A stretch of DNA of 64,000 nucleotides from Candidatus Vogelbacteria bacterium (GTDB lineage Bacteria; Patescibacteriota; Minisyncoccia; Phycocordibacterales; XYD1-FULL-46-19), in the NCBI GenBank assembly GCA_903878275.1, contig CAIRHC010000007.1:78482-142481 (forward strand), read 5' to 3'. Shown here one piece after another: positions 9,346-62,086 of the stretch (the stretch's first letter is position 1; each line of letters starts with the position of its first letter). A program made the position numbers and the translations under genes. The notes beneath the pieces were generated by a model. That model was not told the origin of the DNA and made no database searches. It saw only the letters and a program-made list of their open reading frames with translations.

Positions 9346-9757
9346 TAAAAAACTTATAAGTCGAAAAATTACTTTGATCAACGGTGATTTAAAGAGTTTA
9401 AAAGGCTTAAACAAACTTTCACTCAAAATTTATTTAAGCAACGCGGAGTACGAAACACTGGCGGAAAGATATTTAGAAAGAATAATCGGGCGAATGATTG
9501 ATATTAATTATCATATTTTGTCAGAAAAAGAAAATGAAATGCCCACTGATTTTTACAGTTCTTTTGTTCTGTTGGGCAGAAAAAAGTATTTACCGATAAA
9601 ACTAGCTGAAACGATGGCTGGTTCGGCTGGGTTGCGGAATCGTTTGGCTCACGAGTATGATGAAATTGATGCTAAAAAAGTTTTCGGGGCGATCGATTCT
9701 TGCTTAAAAGATGTACCGAAATACCTAAAGAATATTGTTGCATCGCTGGGTTTGTAA
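9335..9757 (+). CDS. HEPN domain protein (DUF86/HepT-like toxin)
   Basis: RNRLAHEYDEID = HEPN R-x4-6-H motif; overlaps the MNT gene by 11 nt. Confidence 0.7.
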   Translation: MPIDKKLISRKITLINGDLKSLKGLNKLSLKIYLSNAEYETLAERYLERIIGRMIDINYHILSEKENEMPTDFYSSFVLLGRKKYLPIKLAETMAGSAGLRNRLAHEYDEIDAKKVFGAIDSCLKDVPKYLKNIVASLGL

Positions 9758-9914: not shown

Positions 9915-12629
9915 ATGAAAAAATATCTTTTAGGTTTTTTACTCGTCGCTTCTTTGGTGGTGCTTCCGTCGGTGTCTCAAGCTGCTGAAGATTTAACGGT
10001 TACTTTGTATGGTTCGGGTTTGACGAAGGGTGTGGTCGGTGAGCCAGTGGTCCAAACCAGTTTTTCGGTCATGGTCACGCCAAACAACGGTGATGTTTAT
10101 TTGTATACGGGTGGGATATTAGGCATTCAACTTATTCAAGATGGAGGTCGCCCAATGCCCGATAATTGTACTTATAGCCAGAGCCTTACGGGGACATTGC
10201 CTATAGTTACGCATCCTCTAGGAAGCCAATATTATAAACTTGCCAGAGGCACCACTGCTCGTTTCAATGCATCTGTTTATTGTAAGATCAGTCAAATGCA
10301 TCCTGGTACTTATTATGGAAAACTTAGTCACGTAACATATAGCAAGACTGATCCTACGACAACAAACAGTTGGTATGATCAAAATATAGAAAACATCAGG
10401 ACACCAGCATCTATAAATATGTATGTTCTCGGCGAGACTGGTCCGTGGATTAGTTTGGCTGTGGCTAAGGCTGTTCAAGGTGGTTATGAGATTGTTTTAA
10501 CAGGAGAAAGATTGGGTCAGGTAAGAAGCGTGTTCCTGAACAACAAAACATACACTCCCTCAGCCAAACCTGGTGACTCTGTAAGTTTTTTTGCCAGTAT
10601 TGCTGATTTACCTGCCGGTAATTATCCTAGTTATGCTAATTTCTCTGGTGGTAAAAGTAATAATTTTTATCTGATGGTTGGAGGTAGTTCGATTGGAATT
10701 ATTTCACCCAATGGAGGGGAAAATTTAAATGAAGGTTTCGATTATCCTATAAGATGGACAAATTATAATATCACCTCGCCAACCGTTAACGTGGGAATTG
10801 AAAGATATGATAGTTCTGGGGCGTCTCAAGGTTCAACAAATATTATCACTGTCCCAACTACACAAAACAATTCCTATCTTTGGAGGGTTAATCCAAATTT
10901 AGCTTGGCAGGGAACACCGGTGAATCCTTCTTCTGGCCCTTTTAAGTATAAAATTTATGTTAATACTCCAGTCGGTGTTTCCCCAGTTGTTTCTGATTAT
11001 AGTGATAATTATTTTACTATAGCTGCATTAAATCCGACAGCCAAAGTCGCTGTCACCTCCCCAAAAGGAGGAGAGTCATTAGCTCAAGGCTCTACTTATA
11101 ATATTACGTGGAATGCTGCTAGTACTGTCACTAAAGTTGCCATCAGTCTTCTTAAGGGTGATATCGTTCGCTCTACTTCTATTATCAATCCGGTATCAGC
11201 TTCGGCGGGAACTTATGCTTGGAAAGTTGGAAACACCGCAGCGGGAATGATGGAGCCTGGGACTGATTATCGAATCAAAGTTTATGGTGTGACCGATGCC
11301 GGTGTCCCTATTGCGGATGCTAACAGTACCAGTAATTATTTCAGTATTGTGGTATCAGCACCAGCGACCGCTCCCACCATTAATAGTATTACTCCAAACA
11401 CCGCACCGATCGGAACTGCTTCTCGGGTAATCATCCGAGGCTTAAATTTCAGTATCGGTGATACTGTGTATCGTTTTGACGGAGAAATTCAAAGTCAACC
11501 ATTCTGTACTATCGGCGTTAACGCCAATGGGAACTACGACTGTCTTCCTGCTAAACTACCCGCTGGTGCGTACAAGCTTGCGGTGGTAAACTCTCGTGGG
11601 ACGAGCAATAAAGTGGATTTTACTTTTACTCCAGCTACGGCTATACCCACTCTTTCTGTGTCGCTAGATCCTTCTAACCCAACCAGACAAAACATCGGTG
11701 CGGGATCTATTGATCAAGTTTTTGTTAGAATTAAAGTTACCGCCGGATCGATGGATGTTAATAATCTTCAAGGAATCCAACTTGGTTCAGATTCTGCTAA
11801 TGCCAATGATTTTATAACCAACATAAAAGTTTTTGATGGGGCAAATCAGTTGGGTGGAACCATCTCTGGGTTGGACAATAATGGAAAAATTTTTTATAAA
11901 TGGACTTATCCTACTGGCGTAATGATTCCAGCTGGTACCTCTAAGATTCTGACCATTGTCGCCGAAGTGAAATCGACAGCTTCTAGCAATAGCAATTTTC
12001 GTTTAGGTATAACTGGCTGGAATTTTGTTTTTCCGGGGACTGCTGTGGAGCCGTTCGGGACACCGATATATGGTAATTATATGACGATAACGGCTTTGAC
12101 AGATCAGCCGACAATCACCGCAGTAGCAATGGCTTTACCAAATTGTTCTCTTGGTGCGATCAACTGTACTTGGCAGGCGGGGACAGATGGATATTATCTT
12201 TGGGGTTACCTTAATCCTAATACTCCGACCGGTAATACCGTCTCGGTTAGTCTTTGTGCCCCAGACGGAATAACCTGTACGATAGCAAAAGATGCTTCAC
12301 TTAAGGATCTCAACAAAGTACCGTCAAAAACTGGAACCGGATTAGGTAACCTGAATTCTGATAAGGCACCGCTTGGTCGTGGTGTTTTAACCAACCCAGA
12401 TCTGGTGGGAGGGAAGAATCCTGTTATCGTCAATAATCAGTCAACCTTAAAAATCTGCCCAACCAATGCCGACGGTTCGCCTGTGACTAGTGGTATTTGC
12501 AAGGTTAGTCCGGTTTTTACCATTACTCCGCCAGCTACCGCTAGTAATTCTCTGGTGAGTCGACAGTTGGCAAGTATTATTACAGTTTTGTCGGATTTAT
12601 TGGCGAAGATTCGGGGATTGGCTTGGTAA
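9915..12629 (+). CDS. large secreted multi-domain surface protein (Ig-like SPNGGE..W..ITW domains, IPT/TIG-like module)
   Basis: 904 aa, signal peptide MKKYLLGFLLVASLVVLPSVSQA; shares a ~260-nt module with the 19947 gene. Confidence 0.7.
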   Translation: MKKYLLGFLLVASLVVLPSVSQAAEDLTVTLYGSGLTKGVVGEPVVQTSFSVMVTPNNGDVYLYTGGILGIQLIQDGGRPMPDNCTYSQSLTGTLPIVTHPLGSQYYKLARGTTARFNASVYCKISQMHPGTYYGKLSHVTYSKTDPTTTNSWYDQNIENIRTPASINMYVLGETGPWISLAVAKAVQGGYEIVLTGERLGQVRSVFLNNKTYTPSAKPGDSVSFFASIADLPAGNYPSYANFSGGKSNNFYLMVGGSSIGIISPNGGENLNEGFDYPIRWTNYNITSPTVNVGIERYDSSGASQGSTNIITVPTTQNNSYLWRVNPNLAWQGTPVNPSSGPFKYKIYVNTPVGVSPVVSDYSDNYFTIAALNPTAKVAVTSPKGGESLAQGSTYNITWNAASTVTKVAISLLKGDIVRSTSIINPVSASAGTYAWKVGNTAAGMMEPGTDYRIKVYGVTDAGVPIADANSTSNYFSIVVSAPATAPTINSITPNTAPIGTASRVIIRGLNFSIGDTVYRFDGEIQSQPFCTIGVNANGNYDCLPAKLPAGAYKLAVVNSRGTSNKVDFTFTPATAIPTLSVSLDPSNPTRQNIGAGSIDQVFVRIKVTAGSMDVNNLQGIQLGSDSANANDFITNIKVFDGANQLGGTISGLDNNGKIFYKWTYPTGVMIPAGTSKILTIVAEVKSTASSNSNFRLGITGWNFVFPGTAVEPFGTPIYGNYMTITALTDQPTITAVAMALPNCSLGAINCTWQAGTDGYYLWGYLNPNTPTGNTVSVSLCAPDGITCTIAKDASLKDLNKVPSKTGTGLGNLNSDKAPLGRGVLTNPDLVGGKNPVIVNNQSTLKICPTNADGSPVTSGICKVSPVFTITPPATASNSLVSRQLASIITVLSDLLAKIRGLAW

Positions 12630-19946: not shown

Positions 19947-21779
19947 ATGAAAAAATATCTCGTAGCCTTGGCACTAGTCGGGCTAATCATCTCGACTCCT
20001 TTGGCAACCCAAGCTTTTAGTGGAGGGGATCTCTCTTCGCTTATTACTAAAATAGAAAACCTTATTACTCAATTAAAACAATTTCAATTGGGTGCGGTCG
20101 GAACTATCACTGGAGAATCAGCGATTTTAAGTGATTTTGTTTTTACTCCATCCTCACCGTTGGCGATCAACACTACTATCACTGGGAAAGTTAAAATTAC
20201 CAACAACGGCACTGTCGCTCTTCCTGGAGCTGGATATGGTTTGAGGGCGACAAATGTGACAGATTCTAAATTTCTATTTTCTGTTTTTGTGCCCACTATT
20301 CAGCCTGGAGCTTCGGTTGTTCTCCAAAATGGTATGACCTTCTCGTTCCCGACAGCTGGCTACAAAGATACTTTGTGGGAATTAATAAAGGTGGGCAGTA
20401 CTGTGCCTTTGACGACGACTCATCAATATCTCGTGGCGGGGGAAAGTGCCGGTCTTCTTTTTGATTCTTTCTCGCTGGCTTCTCCTGTTGCTCCAAATAC
20501 CAATGTCACCGCGAGTATCAAAGTGGTCAGTAATGGTACCGCTTTATCTGGCTATCAGCTCGTCGGAACGAGTGACACTGGTTTAGTTATCCCAACTATT
20601 ACTGATGTTTCTGTCCCCTCGGCTAGCCCGGCTGGTATTCAAATTAAAACTTTTACCACCCCACCATTTAATTCTGGTACATCCGGAAACTCGGTCATTA
20701 CTTGGAAATTAATTAAAGGCACTACGGTTTTGGGAAATGCGGTGACGGGGACTTTGATGGTGGGTCAAGCAACTCCTTCTATTGCTGTAATTTCCCCAAA
20801 TGGAGGAGAAAATTGGAAAGTGGGTGAAACACATAATATTACTTGGAAGACTAAAGACCTTCCGTCGTCAGATATAATTAATATTAATTTGTTACAGAAG
20901 AATAATGCAATGTTGTTTGTGGCCAATGCTATTAATTCCGGTTCTTATTCTTGGACGATCCCTGTTGAAATGCATGGTTTCAATTTAAATGAGGACGATA
21001 ATTATAAAATACAGCTTCTCGATAATAAGGCGCAACCTTCTTATTTTTCTGACTTGAGCGATACTTATTTTAGTATTTTGGAATCACCTACCACTCCCAC
21101 CGTCAATAGTATTACTCCAAACACCGCACCGATCGGAACTACTTCTCGAATAATAATCAGAGGTTTAAATTTCAGCATCGGTAGCACCATCTATACTTTT
21201 AATGGAGAGACGAAGGACAAACTGTTCTGTACTATCAGCGTCAACGCCAATGGGAACTATGATTGTCCTCTTCCTGCTACTTTTTCCGCTGGTGCATACA
21301 AACTTGCGGTGGTAAACTCTCGTGGGACGAGCAATAAGGTAGATTTTACGTTTACTTCTATTCCTGTTATTACTAATTTAACTGTGGCGTCTACCTCAGC
21401 TATTTTAGGTCAAGGTATTGGTAGTCCGGTCGATCGTTATCCTGTCACTTTTTCTTTTACTCTGGTTAATTCAGGCGATATTCCTTTGTATTTGTCGAAT
21501 AATCCTTCAATTGCATTTGCAACAGTGACATCTCCCGTAAATTCTCCATCTAGTGTTTCTTCTTTTCTTGCGTCTCTTTTACCGGGGGATTCACCTGGTG
21601 CATATGTTATACCGGCGAACGGACAGAGAAGATTCGTAGCTTCTGGACTGATTATGAGTTCTCTTCAAGGAGCAGGGTTACAAATTGTGAGTATATTTTA
21701 CGGTACTTCAGCCAGTGATTTGAGAGCCCTGAACATAGATGTTTCTCGTAAAGGTTTGGGTCAAATGGTGCTTAATTAG
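19947..21779 (+). CDS. secreted surface protein (paralogue of the 17884 N-terminus; Ig-like and IPT-like modules)
   Basis: first ~45 aa near-identical to the 17884 gene; IPT module ~85% nt identical to 11383-11640. Confidence 0.7.
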   Translation: MKKYLVALALVGLIISTPLATQAFSGGDLSSLITKIENLITQLKQFQLGAVGTITGESAILSDFVFTPSSPLAINTTITGKVKITNNGTVALPGAGYGLRATNVTDSKFLFSVFVPTIQPGASVVLQNGMTFSFPTAGYKDTLWELIKVGSTVPLTTTHQYLVAGESAGLLFDSFSLASPVAPNTNVTASIKVVSNGTALSGYQLVGTSDTGLVIPTITDVSVPSASPAGIQIKTFTTPPFNSGTSGNSVITWKLIKGTTVLGNAVTGTLMVGQATPSIAVISPNGGENWKVGETHNITWKTKDLPSSDIININLLQKNNAMLFVANAINSGSYSWTIPVEMHGFNLNEDDNYKIQLLDNKAQPSYFSDLSDTYFSILESPTTPTVNSITPNTAPIGTTSRIIIRGLNFSIGSTIYTFNGETKDKLFCTISVNANGNYDCPLPATFSAGAYKLAVVNSRGTSNKVDFTFTSIPVITNLTVASTSAILGQGIGSPVDRYPVTFSFTLVNSGDIPLYLSNNPSIAFATVTSPVNSPSSVSSFLASLLPGDSPGAYVIPANGQRRFVASGLIMSSLQGAGLQIVSIFYGTSASDLRALNIDVSRKGLGQMVLN

Positions 21780-21841
21780 GAGTGAGGTCGAACCTCACCT
21801 AGGGGATGTCGTTTGTGTTGTAATGTTTTATCTAAAAAATT

Positions 21842-22063
21842 ATGACTACTATCTCGGTACCGTTAAATGCTAAATTAGAAAAAGCTATTAACCATTTGAT
21901 TGAGTCTGGTTATGGCTCTAATAAAATCGAAGTTATTCATCGAGCTGTTATTAGCGCCTCAGAAGAAGAGGCTATCGGAATAGTTCTAAGAGCTAAAAAA
22001 GAGATATCTCTGGGGAGGGGCATAAAAGGTGGTTTAAAAGAATTGGTTAAAAAGTTTAAATAA
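21842..22063 (+). CDS. ribbon-helix-helix (CopG/ParD-like) small protein
   Basis: TISVPL beta-strand followed by two helices. Confidence 0.45.
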   Translation: MTTISVPLNAKLEKAINHLIESGYGSNKIEVIHRAVISASEEEAIGIVLRAKKEISLGRGIKGGLKELVKKFK

Positions 22064-22097
22064 CATTCTAACTCACCGAGAGGTGAATGATAAAACA

Positions 22098-22131
22098 AAA
22101 AAACGGAGAAGTTAAACTTCTCCGTTTTTTT
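22098..22131. terminator. bidirectional terminator aaaaaacggagaagttaaacttctccgttttttt
   Basis: hairpin between convergent genes. Confidence 0.65.
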
Positions 22132-22142
22132 TGTTTTTAAAT

Positions 22143-22490
22143 TTAAGCTTTAGCTTGGCTGACGACTTGGGCGTAAACTTCGGGGTTGTTTTCAGCTAAT
22201 TCAGCAAGCATTTTGCGGTTTAGTCCGATATTTTTCTTCTTTAACATTCCAATAAATTTGCTGTAAGAAAGCTCGAATTCGGCAAGGCTGGCGCCGATCT
22301 TGATATTCCACAAACGACGAAAATCATTTTTCTTATCTCGGCGGTGGGCAAAAGCGTTGACACCAGCTTTTCGGATAGCAACTTTAGCTTCTTTTTCTTT
22401 GGTGCTTCGTCCGAAGCGATAACCCTTGGCGTCTTTCAAGACGTTGCGGCGGTGCTTCATTGAAATTGTTCCTCGTTTTACTCGGGTCAT
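22143..22490 (-). CDS. rplT: 50S ribosomal protein L20
   Basis: 115 aa; sequence recognisably L20; infC-rpmI-rplT order. Confidence 0.92.
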   Translation of the reverse strand: MTRVKRGTISMKHRRNVLKDAKGYRFGRSTKEKEAKVAIRKAGVNAFAHRRDKKNDFRRLWNIKIGASLAEFELSYSKFIGMLKKKNIGLNRKMLAELAENNPEVYAQVVSQAKA

Positions 22491-24248: not shown

Positions 24249-24652
24249 GGGGATGATCGGCTTCGACAGGTAGCCTTTCTCTAGTGTGTATGTGGAGACT
24301 CCGAATCCTCCTTAAACATCGGAAAAACAGTCAAATGCCAACGCATCTGACAAGGGACTTGTGGCTTCGCCATATTTCTCTCCAGCCTTGGCTTTAGCCT
24401 AACGCTGGTGCTGGCTTAAATCGCAGTCTGGATGATTTAAGTTGGTATAATAAATTCTGGACTAGCAATTAAACATTTCTCGGTTTAAAAGCGAAACAAA
24501 GAGAATCGACTAATTAAGGTTTTGTTTGTTTAACACTTAGTTAGTTTAAATCCGCTCGGCGATTAGCCGAGCGGGACATAAACAATCTACACATATAGAT
24601 TCACTAAAGTAACCTATTTGCACGGGGGTTCGATTCCCCCCATCTCCACCCA
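24249..24652 (+). ncRNA. ssrA: tmRNA (ssrA)
   Basis: 5' GGGGATGATCGGCTTCGACAGG; 3' tRNA-like GGGGGTTCGATTCCCCC T-arm + CATCTCCACC with a G3:U wobble; internal tag ORF ending ..PALALA-TAA at 24337-24402. Confidence 0.8.
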
Positions 24653-37009: not shown

Positions 37010-37082
37010 GCGCCTGTAGCTCAGTTGGTAGAGCGACGAGCTTATACCTCGTTGGTCCTAGGTTCGAGTCCTAGCAGGCGCA
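37010..37082 (+). tRNA. tRNA-Ile with anticodon UAU
   Basis: cloverleaf parsed by hand: acceptor gcgcctg/caggcgc, T-arm ctagg-ttcgagt-cctag, anticodon stem acgag/ctcgt, loop cttatac. Confidence 0.75.
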
Positions 37083-40003: not shown

Positions 40004-40092
40004 CGGAGAGGCAGGGATTCGAACCCTGGAACCGATTTTACTCGGTTAACACATTAGCAGTGTGCCCCTTTCGGCCACTCAGGCACCTCTCC
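40004..40092 (-). tRNA. tRNA-Ser (anticodon GCU), class II long variable arm
   Basis: acceptor ggagagg/cctctcc, T-arm cagggttcgaatccctg, anticodon loop ctgctaa. Confidence 0.7.
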
Positions 40093-52671: not shown

Positions 52672-53547
52672 AGCTGGAGGAGGCTTCGCCTCCTCTCAAA
52701 AACAAGGTGAAACAAGGTGAGGCAAAAACAAGGGGAGGTTGAAACAAGGGGAGGTTGAAACAAGGGGAGGTTGAGCCTCCCCTTTGGCGTTGGTTGTGTT
52801 ATAATATAATCAATGTCTCGTAATATTGAATTAGCGATTGATGAATATTATCACATCTTTAATCATGGCAACGGTGACCGACTAATTTTTATTGACGAAA
52901 AAGATAAAGAGCGATTTGTTAAACTACTCTTTTTAGCTAATGGTTGTAACTCTTTTGATTTTGAAGATCTTTCTTCTGGTCAAGAATTCTCTTTTGATCG
53001 TGGTGAGACACTCGTCGCCATTGGCACGTGGTGTTTAATGGATAATCATTATCATCTATTAATTAAAGAAACCACCGATGGTGGAATTAGTCAGTTTATG
53101 CATCGTCTAGCAACTAGCTATACAATGTATTTCAATCGTCGTCATAGAAAAAGGGGAAGTTTGTTTGAGGGACGGTTTCGAGCAAAACACTTAGGTCAGG
53201 ATGAATATTTAAGACATATCTTTGCTTACACCCATCTCAATCCCGTGAAAATGATTGAGCCAAAATGGAAAGAGGTTGGGTTGAAGAATTTGCCGACAGT
53301 CACTAAATTTTTAAAAGAGTATAGATTTTCTAGCTATCTTGATTATCTCGGCGTTGAGCGAAAAGAAAATAAAATTCTTGATAGAGGAGCTTTTCCGCAA
53401 TACTTTTCAAACCCGGAAGAGATCGAGGTTGAAATGATGGACTGGCTAGATTTCGGTAATTTTTATTAGGGTTAATTTTGGGGTGGGGGTCATCAATATT
53501 ATAACACAAATGATACCCCTAGGGGAGGCTCAACCTCCCGACGGGCA
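52672..53547 (+). mobile_element. IS200/RAYT-like element: HUH Y1 transposase gene flanked by inverted hairpin termini (ggggaggttgagcctcccc ... ttgtgttataatat)
   Basis: left end 52765-52806 and right end 53489-53541 are reverse complements of each other; stuttered partial repeats (aacaaggggaggttga x3) at the left end. Confidence 0.65.
52813..53469 (+). CDS. HUH-superfamily Y1 transposase (IS200-like / REP-associated tyrosine transposase-like)
   Basis: NHYHLL (HxH) and YTHLNPVK (Tyr + NPVK) motifs. Confidence 0.7.
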   Translation: MSRNIELAIDEYYHIFNHGNGDRLIFIDEKDKERFVKLLFLANGCNSFDFEDLSSGQEFSFDRGETLVAIGTWCLMDNHYHLLIKETTDGGISQFMHRLATSYTMYFNRRHRKRGSLFEGRFRAKHLGQDEYLRHIFAYTHLNPVKMIEPKWKEVGLKNLPTVTKFLKEYRFSSYLDYLGVERKENKILDRGAFPQYFSNPEEIEVEMMDWLDFGNFY

Positions 53548-53833
53548 TCAGCGGTAGGGAAGTAGCAAAAAAGCAAAAAGGGGATAACTACTTTTTCTCG
53601 GTTTATTTTTTTGTGGTATCATGCTTAAAGTAATATCAAATTTATTAAAATTATTAGCTTTTAAGAGATGTCCAGAAAATTTTGCTTGGCAAAATTTTCC
53701 GGAAAAGGCTAAAACATCAAAAGACGTTCGCCTAAACAAAAAAAATATGAAAAAAATTAAAGAACTAACCGGAAAAATTTTTTCAGGAAAAAATTTTTCC
53801 GGTCAAGTCCAAAATAATAAAGCCTGCCCCGTA

Positions 53834-61306: not shown

Positions 61307-61530
61307 AAGAAAAAGGCAAGGTTCAAAAAGGCAAGGTTCAACCTTACCTCTGGGTACCATTTGTGTTGTAATATTTTTAAGCTTAACGGGTATAAAAAAA
61401 GGCAAGGTTCAACCTTACCTCTGGGTACCATTTGTGTTGTAATATTTAAAACTGTTTCGAAGGTAGGAAAAAGGCAAGGTTCAACCTTACCTCTGGGTAC
61501 CATTTGTGTTGTAATATTTTTAAGCTTAAC
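61307..61530. repeat. tandem array of three ~52-bp units (aaaaaggcaaggttcaaccttacctctgggtaccatttgtgttgtaatattt), period ~77 bp
   Basis: three identical copies read directly; each is a hairpin plus a TTGTGTTGTAAT tail like the RAYT element termini. Confidence 0.7.
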
Positions 61531-61768
61531 GGGTATAAAAAATCTTTTTCAATTTGTCATCGCTAAAACATCTCTCCAGTGAACGTAAAATAGATTTTAG
61601 CGTTCCTCGATCAAGCTCTTCGTGCAGGGGAATAGTTATGAAATAAGCCACTTTACCGACTTTCATTACTAATCTGGCGTGGCTACCTTTTTGTCTAATT
61701 TTCAAAAAACCTTCGGCGAGAAGAATTTGCAATAGGTTTTTACCAGAAATTCTGCGAAGTTTAGGCAT
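61526..61768 (-). CDS. hicA: HicA-family mRNA interferase toxin
   Basis: MPKLRRISGK.L..IL...GF...RQKGSHARL. Confidence 0.8.
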   Translation of the reverse strand: MPKLRRISGKNLLQILLAEGFLKIRQKGSHARLVMKVGKVAYFITIPLHEELDRGTLKSILRSLERCFSDDKLKKIFYTR

Positions 61769-61988
61769 GAGCGATTTCCGAAAAATCCATATTCATCATC
61801 ACTGGTGGAAAAGCATTTTTGATGTTTTTACCAGAAAAATCGTCAAGGCTGATTTCGATTGCCTCACGAATATTATTAAGAAGATCTTCAAAAGTTTTCC
61901 CTTGCGTAATTATTGCCAGACTATCTGCCGATGCAACGTAAAAACCATCTTCTCCTTTTGAAATTTGAAAGGTAACAATCTTGTTCAT
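61761..61988 (-). CDS. hicB: HicB-family antitoxin
   Basis: small protein overlapping hicA by 8 nt; the upstream gene of the hicBA pair. Confidence 0.65.
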   Translation of the reverse strand: MNKIVTFQISKGEDGFYVASADSLAIITQGKTFEDLLNNIREAIEISLDDFSGKNIKNAFPPVMMNMDFSEIAHA

Positions 61989-62086
61989 AAGATGTATATT
62001 ATCACACAAAAGTAAGGTAAATCAAGCTAGCTTAACTACGTATTTGCAAATTTCCTATTTTTTCTTGTTTTCTCTATAATTAGCAG

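What the first reader, a model, noticed from the sequence alone, without database searches (positions are those of the whole stretch)
61307..61530. Tandem array of three identical 52-bp hairpin+tail units next to hicAB
Three identical 52-bp units recur with a period of ~77 bp (the unit sequence is given in the features list); spacer 2 differs from spacers 1 and 3. The array is not CRISPR-like, because spacers are shorter than repeats and there are no cas genes. Each unit has a ggcaaggtt-c-aaccttacc hairpin, a KpnI-like ggtacc, and the TTGTGTTGTAAT tail shared with the RAYT ends. It is probably a REP cluster, and possibly a source of small RNAs or a recombination hotspot.
Basis: seen in the sequence. 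Interest (0 to 1): 0.6.

Follow-up and report, generated by a model that had tools for sequence, protein, structure and literature searches.

The report
Triplicated REP-like hairpin module beside hicA
Three identical copies of a 52-bp hairpin-plus-promoter-like element sit behind a toxin-antitoxin gene pair, and they belong to the small repeat family that brackets this Patescibacteria-type genome's single REP-type (RAYT-like) transposase gene, so this is a locally amplified, atypical REP-like element and nothing new in kind.

Summary
The array is real. Three 100% identical 52-nt units start at 61325, 61396 and 61468, with a period of 71-72 nt, not 77. A 15-nt half-unit precedes them. Spacers 1 and 3 are identical because they copy the last codons of hicA; spacer 2 is unique.

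Each unit is an 8-bp stem with a 3-nt loop, an 11-nt GGG-containing linker, and TTTGTGTTGTAAT. The same module lies upstream of a small RHH gene (21773-21827). It also flanks the RAYT-like HUH/Y1 gene (52813-53469) on both sides, in inverted orientation.

Orthologous RAYT genes in related Patescibacteria carry equivalent flanking modules with compensatory stem changes. Those modules show tandem copy-number differences and sit at rearrangement junctions. Relatives lack hicBA and the array at this site, and hicBA homologues elsewhere lack the module.

The tail matches the host's extended -10 promoter consensus (TRTGnTATAAT), but the array copies carry G at -11. On the hicA-sense strand each hairpin (G.U instead of C.A) is followed by U5-7, like a terminator.

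Best reading: a locally amplified REPtron/TIRtron-type repeat that acts as the hicBA 3' terminator. RAYT involvement is inferred, not shown. CRISPR and known-RNA readings are rejected. True copy number (1 versus 3) cannot be settled from assemblies.

The parts
61310..61324 (+). Half-unit: a duplicate of the A-run plus the 5' arm of the hairpin (AAAAAGGCAAGGTTC). The break falls in the loop.
61325..61376 (+). Unit 1: hairpin at 61330-61348, linker TCTGGGTACCA, tail TTTGTGTTGTAAT.
   Evidence: R1 covariance model 53.1 bits
61377..61395 (+). Spacer A': an ectopic copy of the hicA 3' end (TTAAGCTTAACGGGTATAA), identical to 61520-61538.
   Evidence: 75-nt identity; reading
61396..61447 (+). Unit 2.
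   Evidence: 55.2 bits; flagged as terminator-like on the - strand
61448..61467 (+). Spacer B (AAAACTGTTTCGAAGGTAGG): unique in the window, origin unknown.
61468..61519 (+). Unit 3. Its tail ends 10 nt from the hicA stop codon and points antisense into hicA.
   Evidence: 54.3 bits
61526..61768 (-). hicA toxin gene. Its last codons lie inside the 75-nt repeat.
   Evidence: Pfam HicA_toxin 46.6 bits
61761..61988 (-). 75-aa gene overlapping the hicA start: a putative antitoxin by position only, with no family match. Its promoter is TTGATT-16-GATAAT with an upstream TG.
21773..21827 (+). Solitary module of the same family, with its tail 17 nt upstream of a 73-aa RHH/ParD-like gene (21842-22063).
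   Evidence: (48.9 bits)
52698..52773 (+). Run of five half-hairpin 'stutter' repeats (AAACAAGGTG..., AAACAAGGGGAGGTTG x3) leading into the module upstream of RAYT.
52756..52808 (+). Module upstream of RAYT: hairpin GGGGAGGTTGAGCCTCCCC, then TTGTGTTATAAT ending 7 nt before the ATG.
   Evidence: 64.4 bits
52813..53469 (+). RAYT/TIRYT-like HUH-Y1 gene (motifs NHYH and YTHLNP).
53495..53548 (-). Module downstream of RAYT, inverted, with its tail facing the RAYT stop codon.
   Evidence: 59 bits

Best explanation
The array is a local amplification, in direct orientation, of one member of a low-copy REP/TIR-like repeat family. That family is tied to the genome's single, vertically inherited RAYT-like (TnpA-Y1 class 2) gene.

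The module has three parts: a short G-rich hairpin with an AGGTyGArCCT core, an 11-nt GGG-containing linker, and a T-rich extended -10-like box (TTTGTGTTRTAAT). One copy sits at the 3' end of a hicBA cassette that was inserted between the type IV pilus cluster and ligA.

The unit was then duplicated together with about 20 nt of the hicA 3' end, with the junction falling in T-run microhomology. A further unit carrying a foreign 20-nt flank (spacer B) lies between the copies.

Functionally, on the hicA-sense strand each unit is a hairpin followed by U5-7. This is an intrinsic-terminator-like stop for hicBA, facing the convergent pilin operon. On the other strand each unit carries a weakened promoter-like box pointing antisense into hicA.

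Status of each step:
- Shown: the repeat anatomy, membership of the family, conservation of the RAYT flanking arrangement, and that this site holds an insertion.
- Inferred: that the RAYT-like enzyme (ssDNA hairpin cleavage and joining) or hairpin-stimulated slippage created the copies.
- Inferred: that the units actually terminate or initiate transcription.
For: - Identity and anatomy of the units.
- Covariance model R1 finds exactly six full modules in the window, including both RAYT flanks. Their E-values are 1e-13 to 1e-18, and the next hit is 7e-4.
- Stem covariation across 15 distinct modules: 90.8% of cells paired, and 4 of 8 pairs changed on both sides. No shuffle out of 500 reached these values. 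Slid registers gave 47-69% paired.
- The RAYT-like protein matches Pfam Y1_Tnp at 35.8 bits against a cutoff of 23. H79, H81, Y139, N143 and P144 are invariant in 45 homologues. The AF2 model has pLDDT 91.9, and its best PDB fold match is 4ER8_A, E. coli RAYT bound to a REP hairpin.
- Orthologues at 73-76% identity occupy the same slot in the pilus cluster. They are flanked by a sense module upstream and an inverted module downstream.
- Flanking hairpins persist around more distant homologues. A 50%-identical homologue has a different hairpin (CCGCTAGG) in inverted copies. A 55%-identical one has its hairpins in direct orientation.
- The array's hairpin core AAGGTTCAACCTT is identical to the hairpin core downstream of RAYT in L008.
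- The modules are dynamic. L011 has 2 tandem copies where L008 has 1, although the RAYT protein is identical. L029 has 7 modules in 4.5 kb, a triplicated 114-nt block of module plus relB 5' region, and hairpin-only copies at a junction between gene fragments.
- Relatives have no hicBA or array between the last pilin-like gene and ligA. hicA homologues at 77% and 67% identity have no module downstream.
- The - strand hairpin is more stable and is followed by T5-7.
- The tail equals the host promoter consensus, which is seen 36-46 nt upstream of several other genes.
- The module hairpins differ from the genome's usual long GC-rich terminators.
Against: - The canonical REP hallmark, GT[AG]G at the hairpin foot (PMC6006769, PMC3733652), is absent.
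- The array copies are direct repeats, not inverted doublets.
- Copy number appears low: four loci in 64 kb here, and none outside the RAYT flanks in about 20 kb of each of three relatives.
- In L029 the copy downstream of RAYT is direct rather than inverted.
- The array's stem differs from this genome's own RAYT-flank stems at several positions, so recognition by this RAYT is not assured.
- NCBIfam REP_Tyr_transpos scores 42.8, below its cutoff of 80.
- No transcription, cleavage or transposition data exist.
- A 1-copy contig that is otherwise 100% identical exists, so the copy number in the cell is uncertain.
Confidence: 0.6

Rival explanations
1. Ordinary transcription signals only. The unit is the hicBA terminator with an adjacent host-type promoter box, triplicated by replication slippage. 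It has no relation to the RAYT-like enzyme, and the resemblance to the RAYT flanks reflects shared terminator and promoter consensus.
For: The tail matches the host consensus TRTGnTATAAT, which is also found upstream of unrelated genes. The - strand hairpin with its T-run is terminator-like. Duplication junctions lie in T-runs. In L029 all modules sit upstream of genes in the sense orientation.
Against: The genome's usual terminators are a different class of long GC-rich palindromes. The linker and loop are also similar between copies. The modules flank RAYT orthologues symmetrically in at least four lineages, with the downstream copy pointing antisense. The array and several copies upstream of RAYT have G at -11, which a purely promoter-driven constraint would not keep (the importance of A-11 is my own knowledge of sigma-70 promoters). 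Only some copies have a T-run after the hairpin.
Confidence: 0.2
2. Assembly artefact. The genome has one unit (as in contig L006), and the three-unit array is a mis-threaded path through a repeat that occurs at several loci or in several strains.
For: L006 equals the window minus exactly 143 bp and is otherwise 100% identical. The contigs carrying this region in other samples are short (873 and 777 bp), and one of them ends inside a unit.
Against: Two independent assemblies give the same U-A'-U-B-U order: the window, from a 150-kb contig, and L007, from other samples. Spacer B is flanked by units on both sides. Short-read assemblers usually collapse tandem repeats rather than expand them (my own knowledge). 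A perfect 75-nt repeat is exactly what would produce a collapsed 1-copy contig.
Confidence: 0.1
3. A small-RNA or antisense-RNA locus. Each unit's promoter-like box fires a short + strand transcript. Unit 3 would give an antisense RNA against the hicA toxin mRNA, in the manner of the inverted copy facing the RAYT gene.
For: The extended -10-like box in unit 3 ends 10 nt from the hicA stop codon and points into the gene. The same geometry is conserved downstream of RAYT orthologues and behind genes in L023 and L024.
Against: The array's box is TGTAAT, with G at -11, and has no -35 element, so the promoter scan does not call it. On the + strand the hairpin is weak (C.A mismatch; z-score 0.19) and no U-tract follows it, so discrete sRNAs are not predicted. 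There is no Rfam match.
Confidence: 0.08
4. A CRISPR-like or other spacer-acquiring array.
For: Regularly spaced identical repeats containing a hairpin.
Against: Spacers 1 and 3 are identical and copy the neighbouring hicA gene. The spacers (19-20 nt) are much shorter than the 52-nt repeat. There are only three repeats. No Rfam CRISPR-DR family matches. The repeat is a dispersed element found singly elsewhere in the window.
Confidence: 0.01

Closest known systems
REP sequences in a REPtron (E. coli TnpAREP/RAYT with flanking REPs; Nunvar 2010 PMC2817692; Ton-Hoang/Messing 2012 PMC3479197; Corneloup 2021 PMC8266576)
   Same: A single-copy, vertically inherited HUH-Y1 gene with the class 2 Y...NP motif. 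It is flanked by short palindromic repeats in inverted orientation, and copies of those repeats are dispersed or clustered in intergenic DNA, mostly next to gene ends. The best structural match of the protein is 4ER8.
   Different: There is no GT[AG]G foot. A conserved 13-nt promoter-like tail plus an 11-nt linker is part of the repeat. The stems differ between copies through compensatory changes instead of being near-identical. The array is made of direct repeats rather than BIME/REPIN inverted doublets. Copy number seems low. The host is a Patescibacteria-type genome; a text search of the 2018 survey found no mention of that group.
TIRtron / TIRYT (Di Nocera 2013, PMC3733652), equivalent to TnpA-Y1 subclass 2.1 (Quentin 2018, PMC6006769) and Bertels group 1 (PMC5581495)
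   Same: A RAYT-like gene flanked by longer terminal inverted repeats that are not GTAG REPs. Some of these include self-complementary tracts, form moderately abundant families, and occur as dimers or clusters. The protein motifs NHYH and Y[IVT]HLNP, the length of about 220-240 aa and the C-terminal extension fit subclass 2.1. A G-run lies in the repeat next to the hairpin.
   Different: The published TIR motif GGGGWSAS is not matched exactly (GGGGTATC, GGGTACCA, GGGGATGT). No HTH or DnaA_C Pfam match was found in the C-terminal part. Subclass 2.1 was reported as not associated with REP-like hairpins, whereas here a covarying hairpin is the conserved core.
Promoter- or terminator-carrying miniature repeats (Neisseria Correia/NEMIS, pneumococcal RUP/BOX, ERIC). 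This comparison rests on my own knowledge and the background section of PMC3733652.
   Same: A small intergenic repeat that brings a hairpin and promoter-like sequence next to genes and so can change the expression of neighbouring genes.
   Different: Those are MITEs with TIRs, mobilised by DDE transposases, and they leave target-site duplications. Here the likely partner is an HUH-Y1 enzyme, and no target-site duplication is seen around the units.
Rho-independent terminator
   Same: On the hicA-sense strand there is an 8-11-bp stem, a 3-nt loop and a U5-7 tail, 24 nt after the stop codon.
   Different: It is repeated three times with a conserved 24-nt 5' extension. It is homologous to elements that lack a U-tract elsewhere. 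It is also unlike the genome's standard terminators.

Membership tests
REP / REPtron (RAYT-associated repetitive extragenic palindromes) | The genome encodes a TnpA-Y1 class 2 protein (HUH motif, catalytic Tyr in Y...NP). | tested here: met
   NHYH at residues 78-81 and YTHLNP at 139-144, invariant in 45 homologues. Pfam Y1_Tnp scores 35.8 against a cutoff of 23. The fold is closest to 4ER8_A. NCBIfam REP_Tyr_transpos scores only 42.8 against a cutoff of 80.
REP / REPtron (RAYT-associated repetitive extragenic palindromes) | The gene is flanked by the repeats in inverted orientation. | tested here: met
   In the window the flanking copies are 52756-52808(+) and 53495-53548(-). The same holds in the L008, L012, L015 and L025 lineages and in L028 with a different hairpin. 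Exceptions: the L029 and L027 copies are direct.
REP / REPtron (RAYT-associated repetitive extragenic palindromes) | The repeat core is a stem-loop maintained by selection. | tested here: met
   90.8% of cells paired; 4 of 8 pairs with double changes; 0 of 500 shuffles reach this.
REP / REPtron (RAYT-associated repetitive extragenic palindromes) | A conserved GT[AG]G tetranucleotide at the 5' foot of the hairpin. | tested here: not met
   The feet read AAAAA|GG, CAGA|GG, CCTA|GG and so on, on either strand. There is no GTAG or GTGG at the foot.
REP / REPtron (RAYT-associated repetitive extragenic palindromes) | High genome-wide copy number of near-identical copies, typically as inverted doublets (REPIN/BIME). 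| tested here: inconclusive
   Only 64 kb of the genome is available, holding 6 full copies at 4 loci. The array is in direct orientation. The rest of the source genome could not be fetched.
TIRtron / TIRYT (TnpA-Y1 subclass 2.1) | Signature motifs NH[YF]H and Y[IV]HLNP, length about 238 aa, and a C-terminal extra domain. | tested here: met
   NHYH and YTHLNP (T in place of I/V); 218 aa; a helical C-terminal region at residues 145-212 modelled with high confidence. Assignment to the subclass is by motif only; no phylogeny was made.
TIRtron / TIRYT (TnpA-Y1 subclass 2.1) | Flanking TIRs share GGGGWSAS. | tested here: not met
   The linkers read GGGGTATC, GGGTACCA, GGGGATGT and GGCGTTGG. A G-run is present but the motif is not matched.
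CRISPR array | Several identical repeats separated by unique, similarly sized spacers of foreign origin; cas genes or a known DR family. | tested here: not met
   Spacers 1 and 3 are identical and derive from hicA. The spacers are 19-20 nt against a 52-nt repeat. There is no Rfam CRISPR-DR match. The cas gene content of the window was not scanned exhaustively.
Intrinsic (Rho-independent) terminator | A GC-containing stem-loop immediately followed by a U-tract, downstream of a gene on its sense strand. | tested here: met
   On the - strand: GGUAAGGUUGAACCUUGCC plus U5-7, -13.5 kcal/mol, z-score -2.5. One of the three units passes the consensus scan. Function was not tested.
Sigma-70 extended -10 promoter (TRTGnTATAAT) | TG at -15/-14, and a -10 hexamer with A at -11 and T at -7. 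| tested here: inconclusive
   The RAYT-flank copies match 11 of 11 positions. The array units read TGTGTTGTAAT, with G at -11. The promoter scan does not call them because there is no -35 element.

The most novel reading that the evidence does not exclude
In Patescibacteria, a widespread RAYT-like HUH enzyme may copy and paste a portable 'hairpin + consensus promoter' module. That module would act as transcription punctuation: a terminator on one strand and a promoter or antisense promoter on the other. It would also act as a recombination joint that captures neighbouring gene fragments and shuffles small cassettes such as hicBA, relBE, an RHH gene and fic. On this reading the hicA array is a frozen intermediate of such events, including a junction (spacer B) imported from another locus.
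Probability: 0.15. Interest if true: 0.6.

Novelty: new member of a known kind. Interest (0 to 1): 0.35.

Why it matters
RAYT/REP systems have mostly been described in Proteobacteria and Cyanobacteria. Here a RAYT-like family with 948 detectable homologues, those named by their sources being Patescibacteria, has conserved flanking hairpin modules. In this lineage the modules include the host's promoter consensus.

If the enzyme really mobilises them, tiny streamlined genomes would be carrying a domesticated system that moves terminator/promoter units and reshapes toxin-antitoxin neighbourhoods.

For this window specifically, the practical points are two. The array is a likely assembly-fragile, copy-number-variable site. 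It probably insulates the inserted hicBA cassette from the convergent pilus operon.

Tried and rejected
- **Rfam.** The whole window at gathering thresholds, and the locus at E up to 10, gave only noise at the array; tmRNA and two tRNAs lie elsewhere.
- **GTDB representative genomes.** A scan for GGTAYCATTTGTGTTRTAAT returned only two single Flavobacterium matches, about the number expected by chance (my estimate); these were not examined further.
- **IMG/VR.** Three single matches, none recognised by the covariance model.
- **JGI metagenomes.** The array-type pattern gave 0 hits. A looser pattern gave 8 loci, mostly RAYT flanks of relatives. One of them (L021) has no RAYT homologue nearby and looks like a chance hit in unrelated DNA; this is my reading and its composition was not measured.
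- **Fetching more of the source genome.** Exact-protein look-ups failed for the RAYT gene, a left-end gene and the pilin-like gene. The origin of spacer B and a genome-wide census therefore remain open.
- **Did the module travel with hicBA?** No. hicA homologues at 77% and 67% identity have no module downstream.
- **Is the module hairpin just the genome's generic terminator?** No. The usual terminators are long GC-rich palindromes of a different sequence class.
- **PDB searches.** Sequence and profile searches found nothing significant. Only fold comparison linked the protein to RAYT.
- **CM hit at 22084-22145.** This weak hit is a plain bidirectional terminator without the tail.
- **Putative antitoxin.** It could not be assigned to HicB by Pfam or NCBIfam.

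Full report
**1. Observation**

The window contains three 100% identical 52-nt units (AAAAAGGCAAGGTTCAACCTTACCTCTGGGTACCATTTGTGTTGTAATATTT) at 61325, 61396 and 61468. TRF and the repeat finder give a period of 71-72 nt, not about 77. A 43-nt core allowing up to 3 mismatches occurs three times, against none in 100 shuffles.

- Copies 1 and 3 are identical over 75 nt. The extra 23 nt is the 3' end of hicA. The hicA gene runs 61526-61768 on the - strand, and its stop codon and last five codons lie inside the repeat.
- So 'spacer 1 = spacer 3' because a piece of hicA was duplicated together with the unit. The junctions fall in T-runs: GCCTTTTT at the end of the unit and GATTTTTT in hicA.
- Spacer 2 (61448-61467) is unique in the window.
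- A 15-nt half-unit, made of the A-run plus the 5' arm, precedes unit 1.
- The stem has a C.A mismatch on the + strand, which becomes G.U or G.T on the - strand. The - strand therefore folds better, both as RNA (-13.5 versus -8.2 kcal/mol) and as ssDNA (-6.0 versus -4.3).

**2. The unit is one member of a small family in the window**

The tail TTGTGTTRTAAT occurs six times with up to one mismatch (0.49 expected). Besides the array it lies at 21813(+), 52794(+) and 53498(-). At each place it is preceded, 11-12 nt upstream, by a hairpin with the core AGGTnnAnCCTnnCC. That core gives 9 matches against 0.08 expected, all at these four loci.

I aligned 15 distinct modules from the window and related contigs.
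- The stem shows 90.8% pairing, and 4 of 8 pairs are changed on both sides. No shuffle out of 500 reached this, and slid registers gave 47-69% pairing.
- A covariance model built from the alignment (R1) was run without filters. It finds exactly six full modules in the 64 kb, with E-values of 1e-13 to 1e-18. The next hit (7e-4) is an ordinary terminator.

**3. Link to the RAYT-like gene**

The copies at 52756-52808(+) and 53495-53548(-) bracket, in inverted orientation, a 218-aa ORF (52813-53469).
- It matches Pfam Y1_Tnp at 35.8 bits against a cutoff of 23. It has NHYH and YTHLNP motifs that are invariant in 45 homologues.
- These are the class 2 (Y...NP) signatures of Quentin et al. 2018, closest to subclass 2.1/TIRYT (PMC6006769).
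- NCBIfam's RAYT model scores below its cutoff (42.8 against 80). PDB sequence searches find nothing.
- A confident AF2 model (pLDDT 91.9) has E. coli RAYT bound to a REP hairpin (4ER8_A) as its best fold match, followed by the IS608 and ISDra2 TnpA structures.
- The family has 948 homologues at E of 1e-10 or better. Those named by their sources are Patescibacteria.

**4. Comparative evidence**

Orthologues at 73-76% identity occupy the same slot inside the type IV pilus gene cluster in several metagenomic lineages. The gene is therefore vertically inherited, as is typical of RAYTs (PMC5581495).

Each orthologue is flanked in the same way as in the window:
- upstream, hairpin-linker-TTTGTGTTATAAT ending about 7 nt before the ATG;
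- downstream, the inverted module with its tail next to the stop codon.

The stem sequences differ between lineages but stay paired. More distant homologues vary:
- The 50%-identical homologue (L028) has a different hairpin (CCGCTAGG) in inverted copies.
- The 55%-identical one (L027) has direct copies.
- L029 (66% identical) also has a direct copy downstream.

The array's hairpin core AAGGTTCAACCTT is identical to that of the module downstream of RAYT in L008. This REPtron/TIRtron-like arrangement is the strongest argument that the array unit belongs to an element associated with a RAYT-type gene.

**5. The modules are dynamic**

- L011 has two exact tandem copies of the module upstream of RAYT where L008-L010 have one, although the RAYT protein is identical.
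- Half-hairpin 'stutters' precede modules in the window (61310-61324; 52698-52773) and in L008, L012 and L025.
- L029 has seven modules in 4.5 kb. It also has a triplicated 114-nt block made of a module plus the relB 5' region.
- L029 further carries two 27-nt hairpin-only copies at the joint between a truncated relB copy and an N-terminally truncated capsid-like ORF.
- Tandem amplification with capture of adjacent gene fragments, as in the hicA array, is therefore a recurring behaviour of this family.

**6. The local context is an insertion**

In relatives the last pilin-like gene is followed directly by the conserved ligA promoter (AATTTCC...CTATAATT). In L015 a PaaX-like gene, flanked by a duplicated promoter block, sits between them. 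In the window, about 740 bp lies between these points (about 61310-62049, bordered by GCAAAT on both sides). This segment consists of the array plus hicA and a 75-aa putative antitoxin.

hicBA homologues in other Patescibacteria (77% and 67% HicA identity) conserve the hicA C-terminus but have no module downstream. The module was therefore added in this lineage and did not arrive with the cassette.

**7. What the parts would do**

*The tail.* It is the host's extended -10 promoter consensus, TRTGnTATAAT. The same motif lies 36-46 nt upstream of several unrelated genes, and the hicB promoter is of this type. The RAYT-flank copies match it perfectly.
- The upstream copy is placed to drive a leaderless or near-leaderless RAYT mRNA.
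- The downstream copy points antisense into RAYT.
- The array units, the 21813 copy and several copies upstream of RAYT in other lineages read TGTAAT instead. That puts G at -11, the most critical promoter position (my own knowledge of sigma-70 promoters). So promoter activity of the array units is doubtful, and the constraint on the tail may not be purely promoter-related.

*The hairpin.* On the hicA-sense strand each unit is a hairpin followed by U5-7, 24 nt after the stop codon. This looks like an intrinsic terminator, present three times, facing the convergent pilin operon. The module hairpins differ from the genome's usual terminators, which are long GC-rich palindromes.

**8. Copy number**

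Contig L006, from other samples of the same study, equals the window minus exactly 143 bp (two units) and is otherwise 100% identical. L007 reproduces the multi-unit order and ends inside the third unit. Two independent assemblies support the array. A perfect 75-nt repeat could produce the 1-copy contig by collapse, or both alleles may coexist. This cannot be decided without reads.

**9. Verdict**

The interpretation 'REP cluster' is partly supported. The array is a locally amplified member of a repeat family of REPtron/TIRtron type, linked to a RAYT-like gene. It is atypical in four ways: no GTAG foot, a promoter-like tail, direct orientation and low copy number.

- It most likely acts as the terminator of the inserted hicBA cassette.
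- It marks a duplication-prone site.
- Involvement of the HUH enzyme in making the copies is an inference from known TnpAREP biochemistry (PMC8266576).
- CRISPR, known-RNA-family and plain-artefact readings are unlikely.

Novelty is modest: a new member of a known kind, in a phylum where such systems have not, to my knowledge and in the library searches I ran, been described.

Noticed in passing
window ~3361, 8876, 9760, 12655, 19758, 28787, 39368: A second family of intergenic hairpins: long GC-rich palindromes (ACCGCCCGAGGC...GCCTCGGGCGGT) flanked by an A-run and a T-run. They are probably the genome's standard bidirectional terminators, and their stems are similar enough to one another to look like a repeat family.
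   Followed up: partly
window 51481, 53672-53700, 54371, 55766: Palindromes of the form CCGGAAAATTTTG...CAAAATTTTCCGG recur next to the pilin-like genes of the type IV pilus cluster. They may be a regulator binding site.
   Followed up: no
window 53580-53588; L008 ~10757-10768; L012 ~10712-10722; L015 ~10690-10700: A DnaA-box-like GTGGATAAC (GGGGATAAC in the window) is conserved a few tens of nt beyond the module downstream of RAYT. TnpA-Y1 subclass 2.1 proteins are reported to have a DnaA_C-like HTH tail (PMC6006769).
   Followed up: no
window 61310-61324 and 52698-52773; L008 9876-9900 and 9938-9955; L012 9925-9955; L025 ~9600-9650: Tandem 'stutter' repeats of only the 5' half of the hairpin (9-18-nt periods) precede many modules. 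The break often falls in or next to the loop. The mechanism is unexplained: slippage at the hairpin, or nicking in the loop.
   Followed up: partly
L015 15003-15045 and 15830-15872: At the same pilus-cluster/ligA junction where the window has hicBA plus the array, a relative has a PaaX-like gene. It is flanked by two copies of the ~40-nt ligA promoter block, so this junction is a recurrent insertion site.
   Followed up: partly
L029 11009-11065: Two 27-nt hairpin-only copies are read in frame (KKKVEPFV twice). They lie at the joint between a truncated duplicate of a relB-like gene and an N-terminally truncated phage-capsid-like ORF.
   Followed up: partly
window 52813-53469; L008, L012, L015, L025 at ~10001: The RAYT-like gene sits at a conserved position inside the type IV pilus gene cluster, between pilin genes, in several lineages whose proteins are 70-76% identical. 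This is an unusual, stable home for a transposase-derived gene.
   Followed up: partly
window 21842-22063: A solitary 73-aa RHH/ParD-like gene (weak TIGR02606 match, E 0.003) with no adjacent toxin gene lies directly downstream of a module and next to the rplT-rpmI-infC operon.
   Followed up: no
window 24249-24651, 37010-37082, 40004-40092: tmRNA and two tRNA genes; ordinary.
   Followed up: no
window 61995-62045 (-): The hicB-side promoter region weakly resembles the module (R1 14.6 bits, E 0.07): palindrome AAGCTAGCTT, an ~11-nt linker and TTTTGTGTGATAAT. The duplicated hicA 3' spacer contains a related palindrome, TTAAGCTTAA. This may be coincidence.
   Followed up: no
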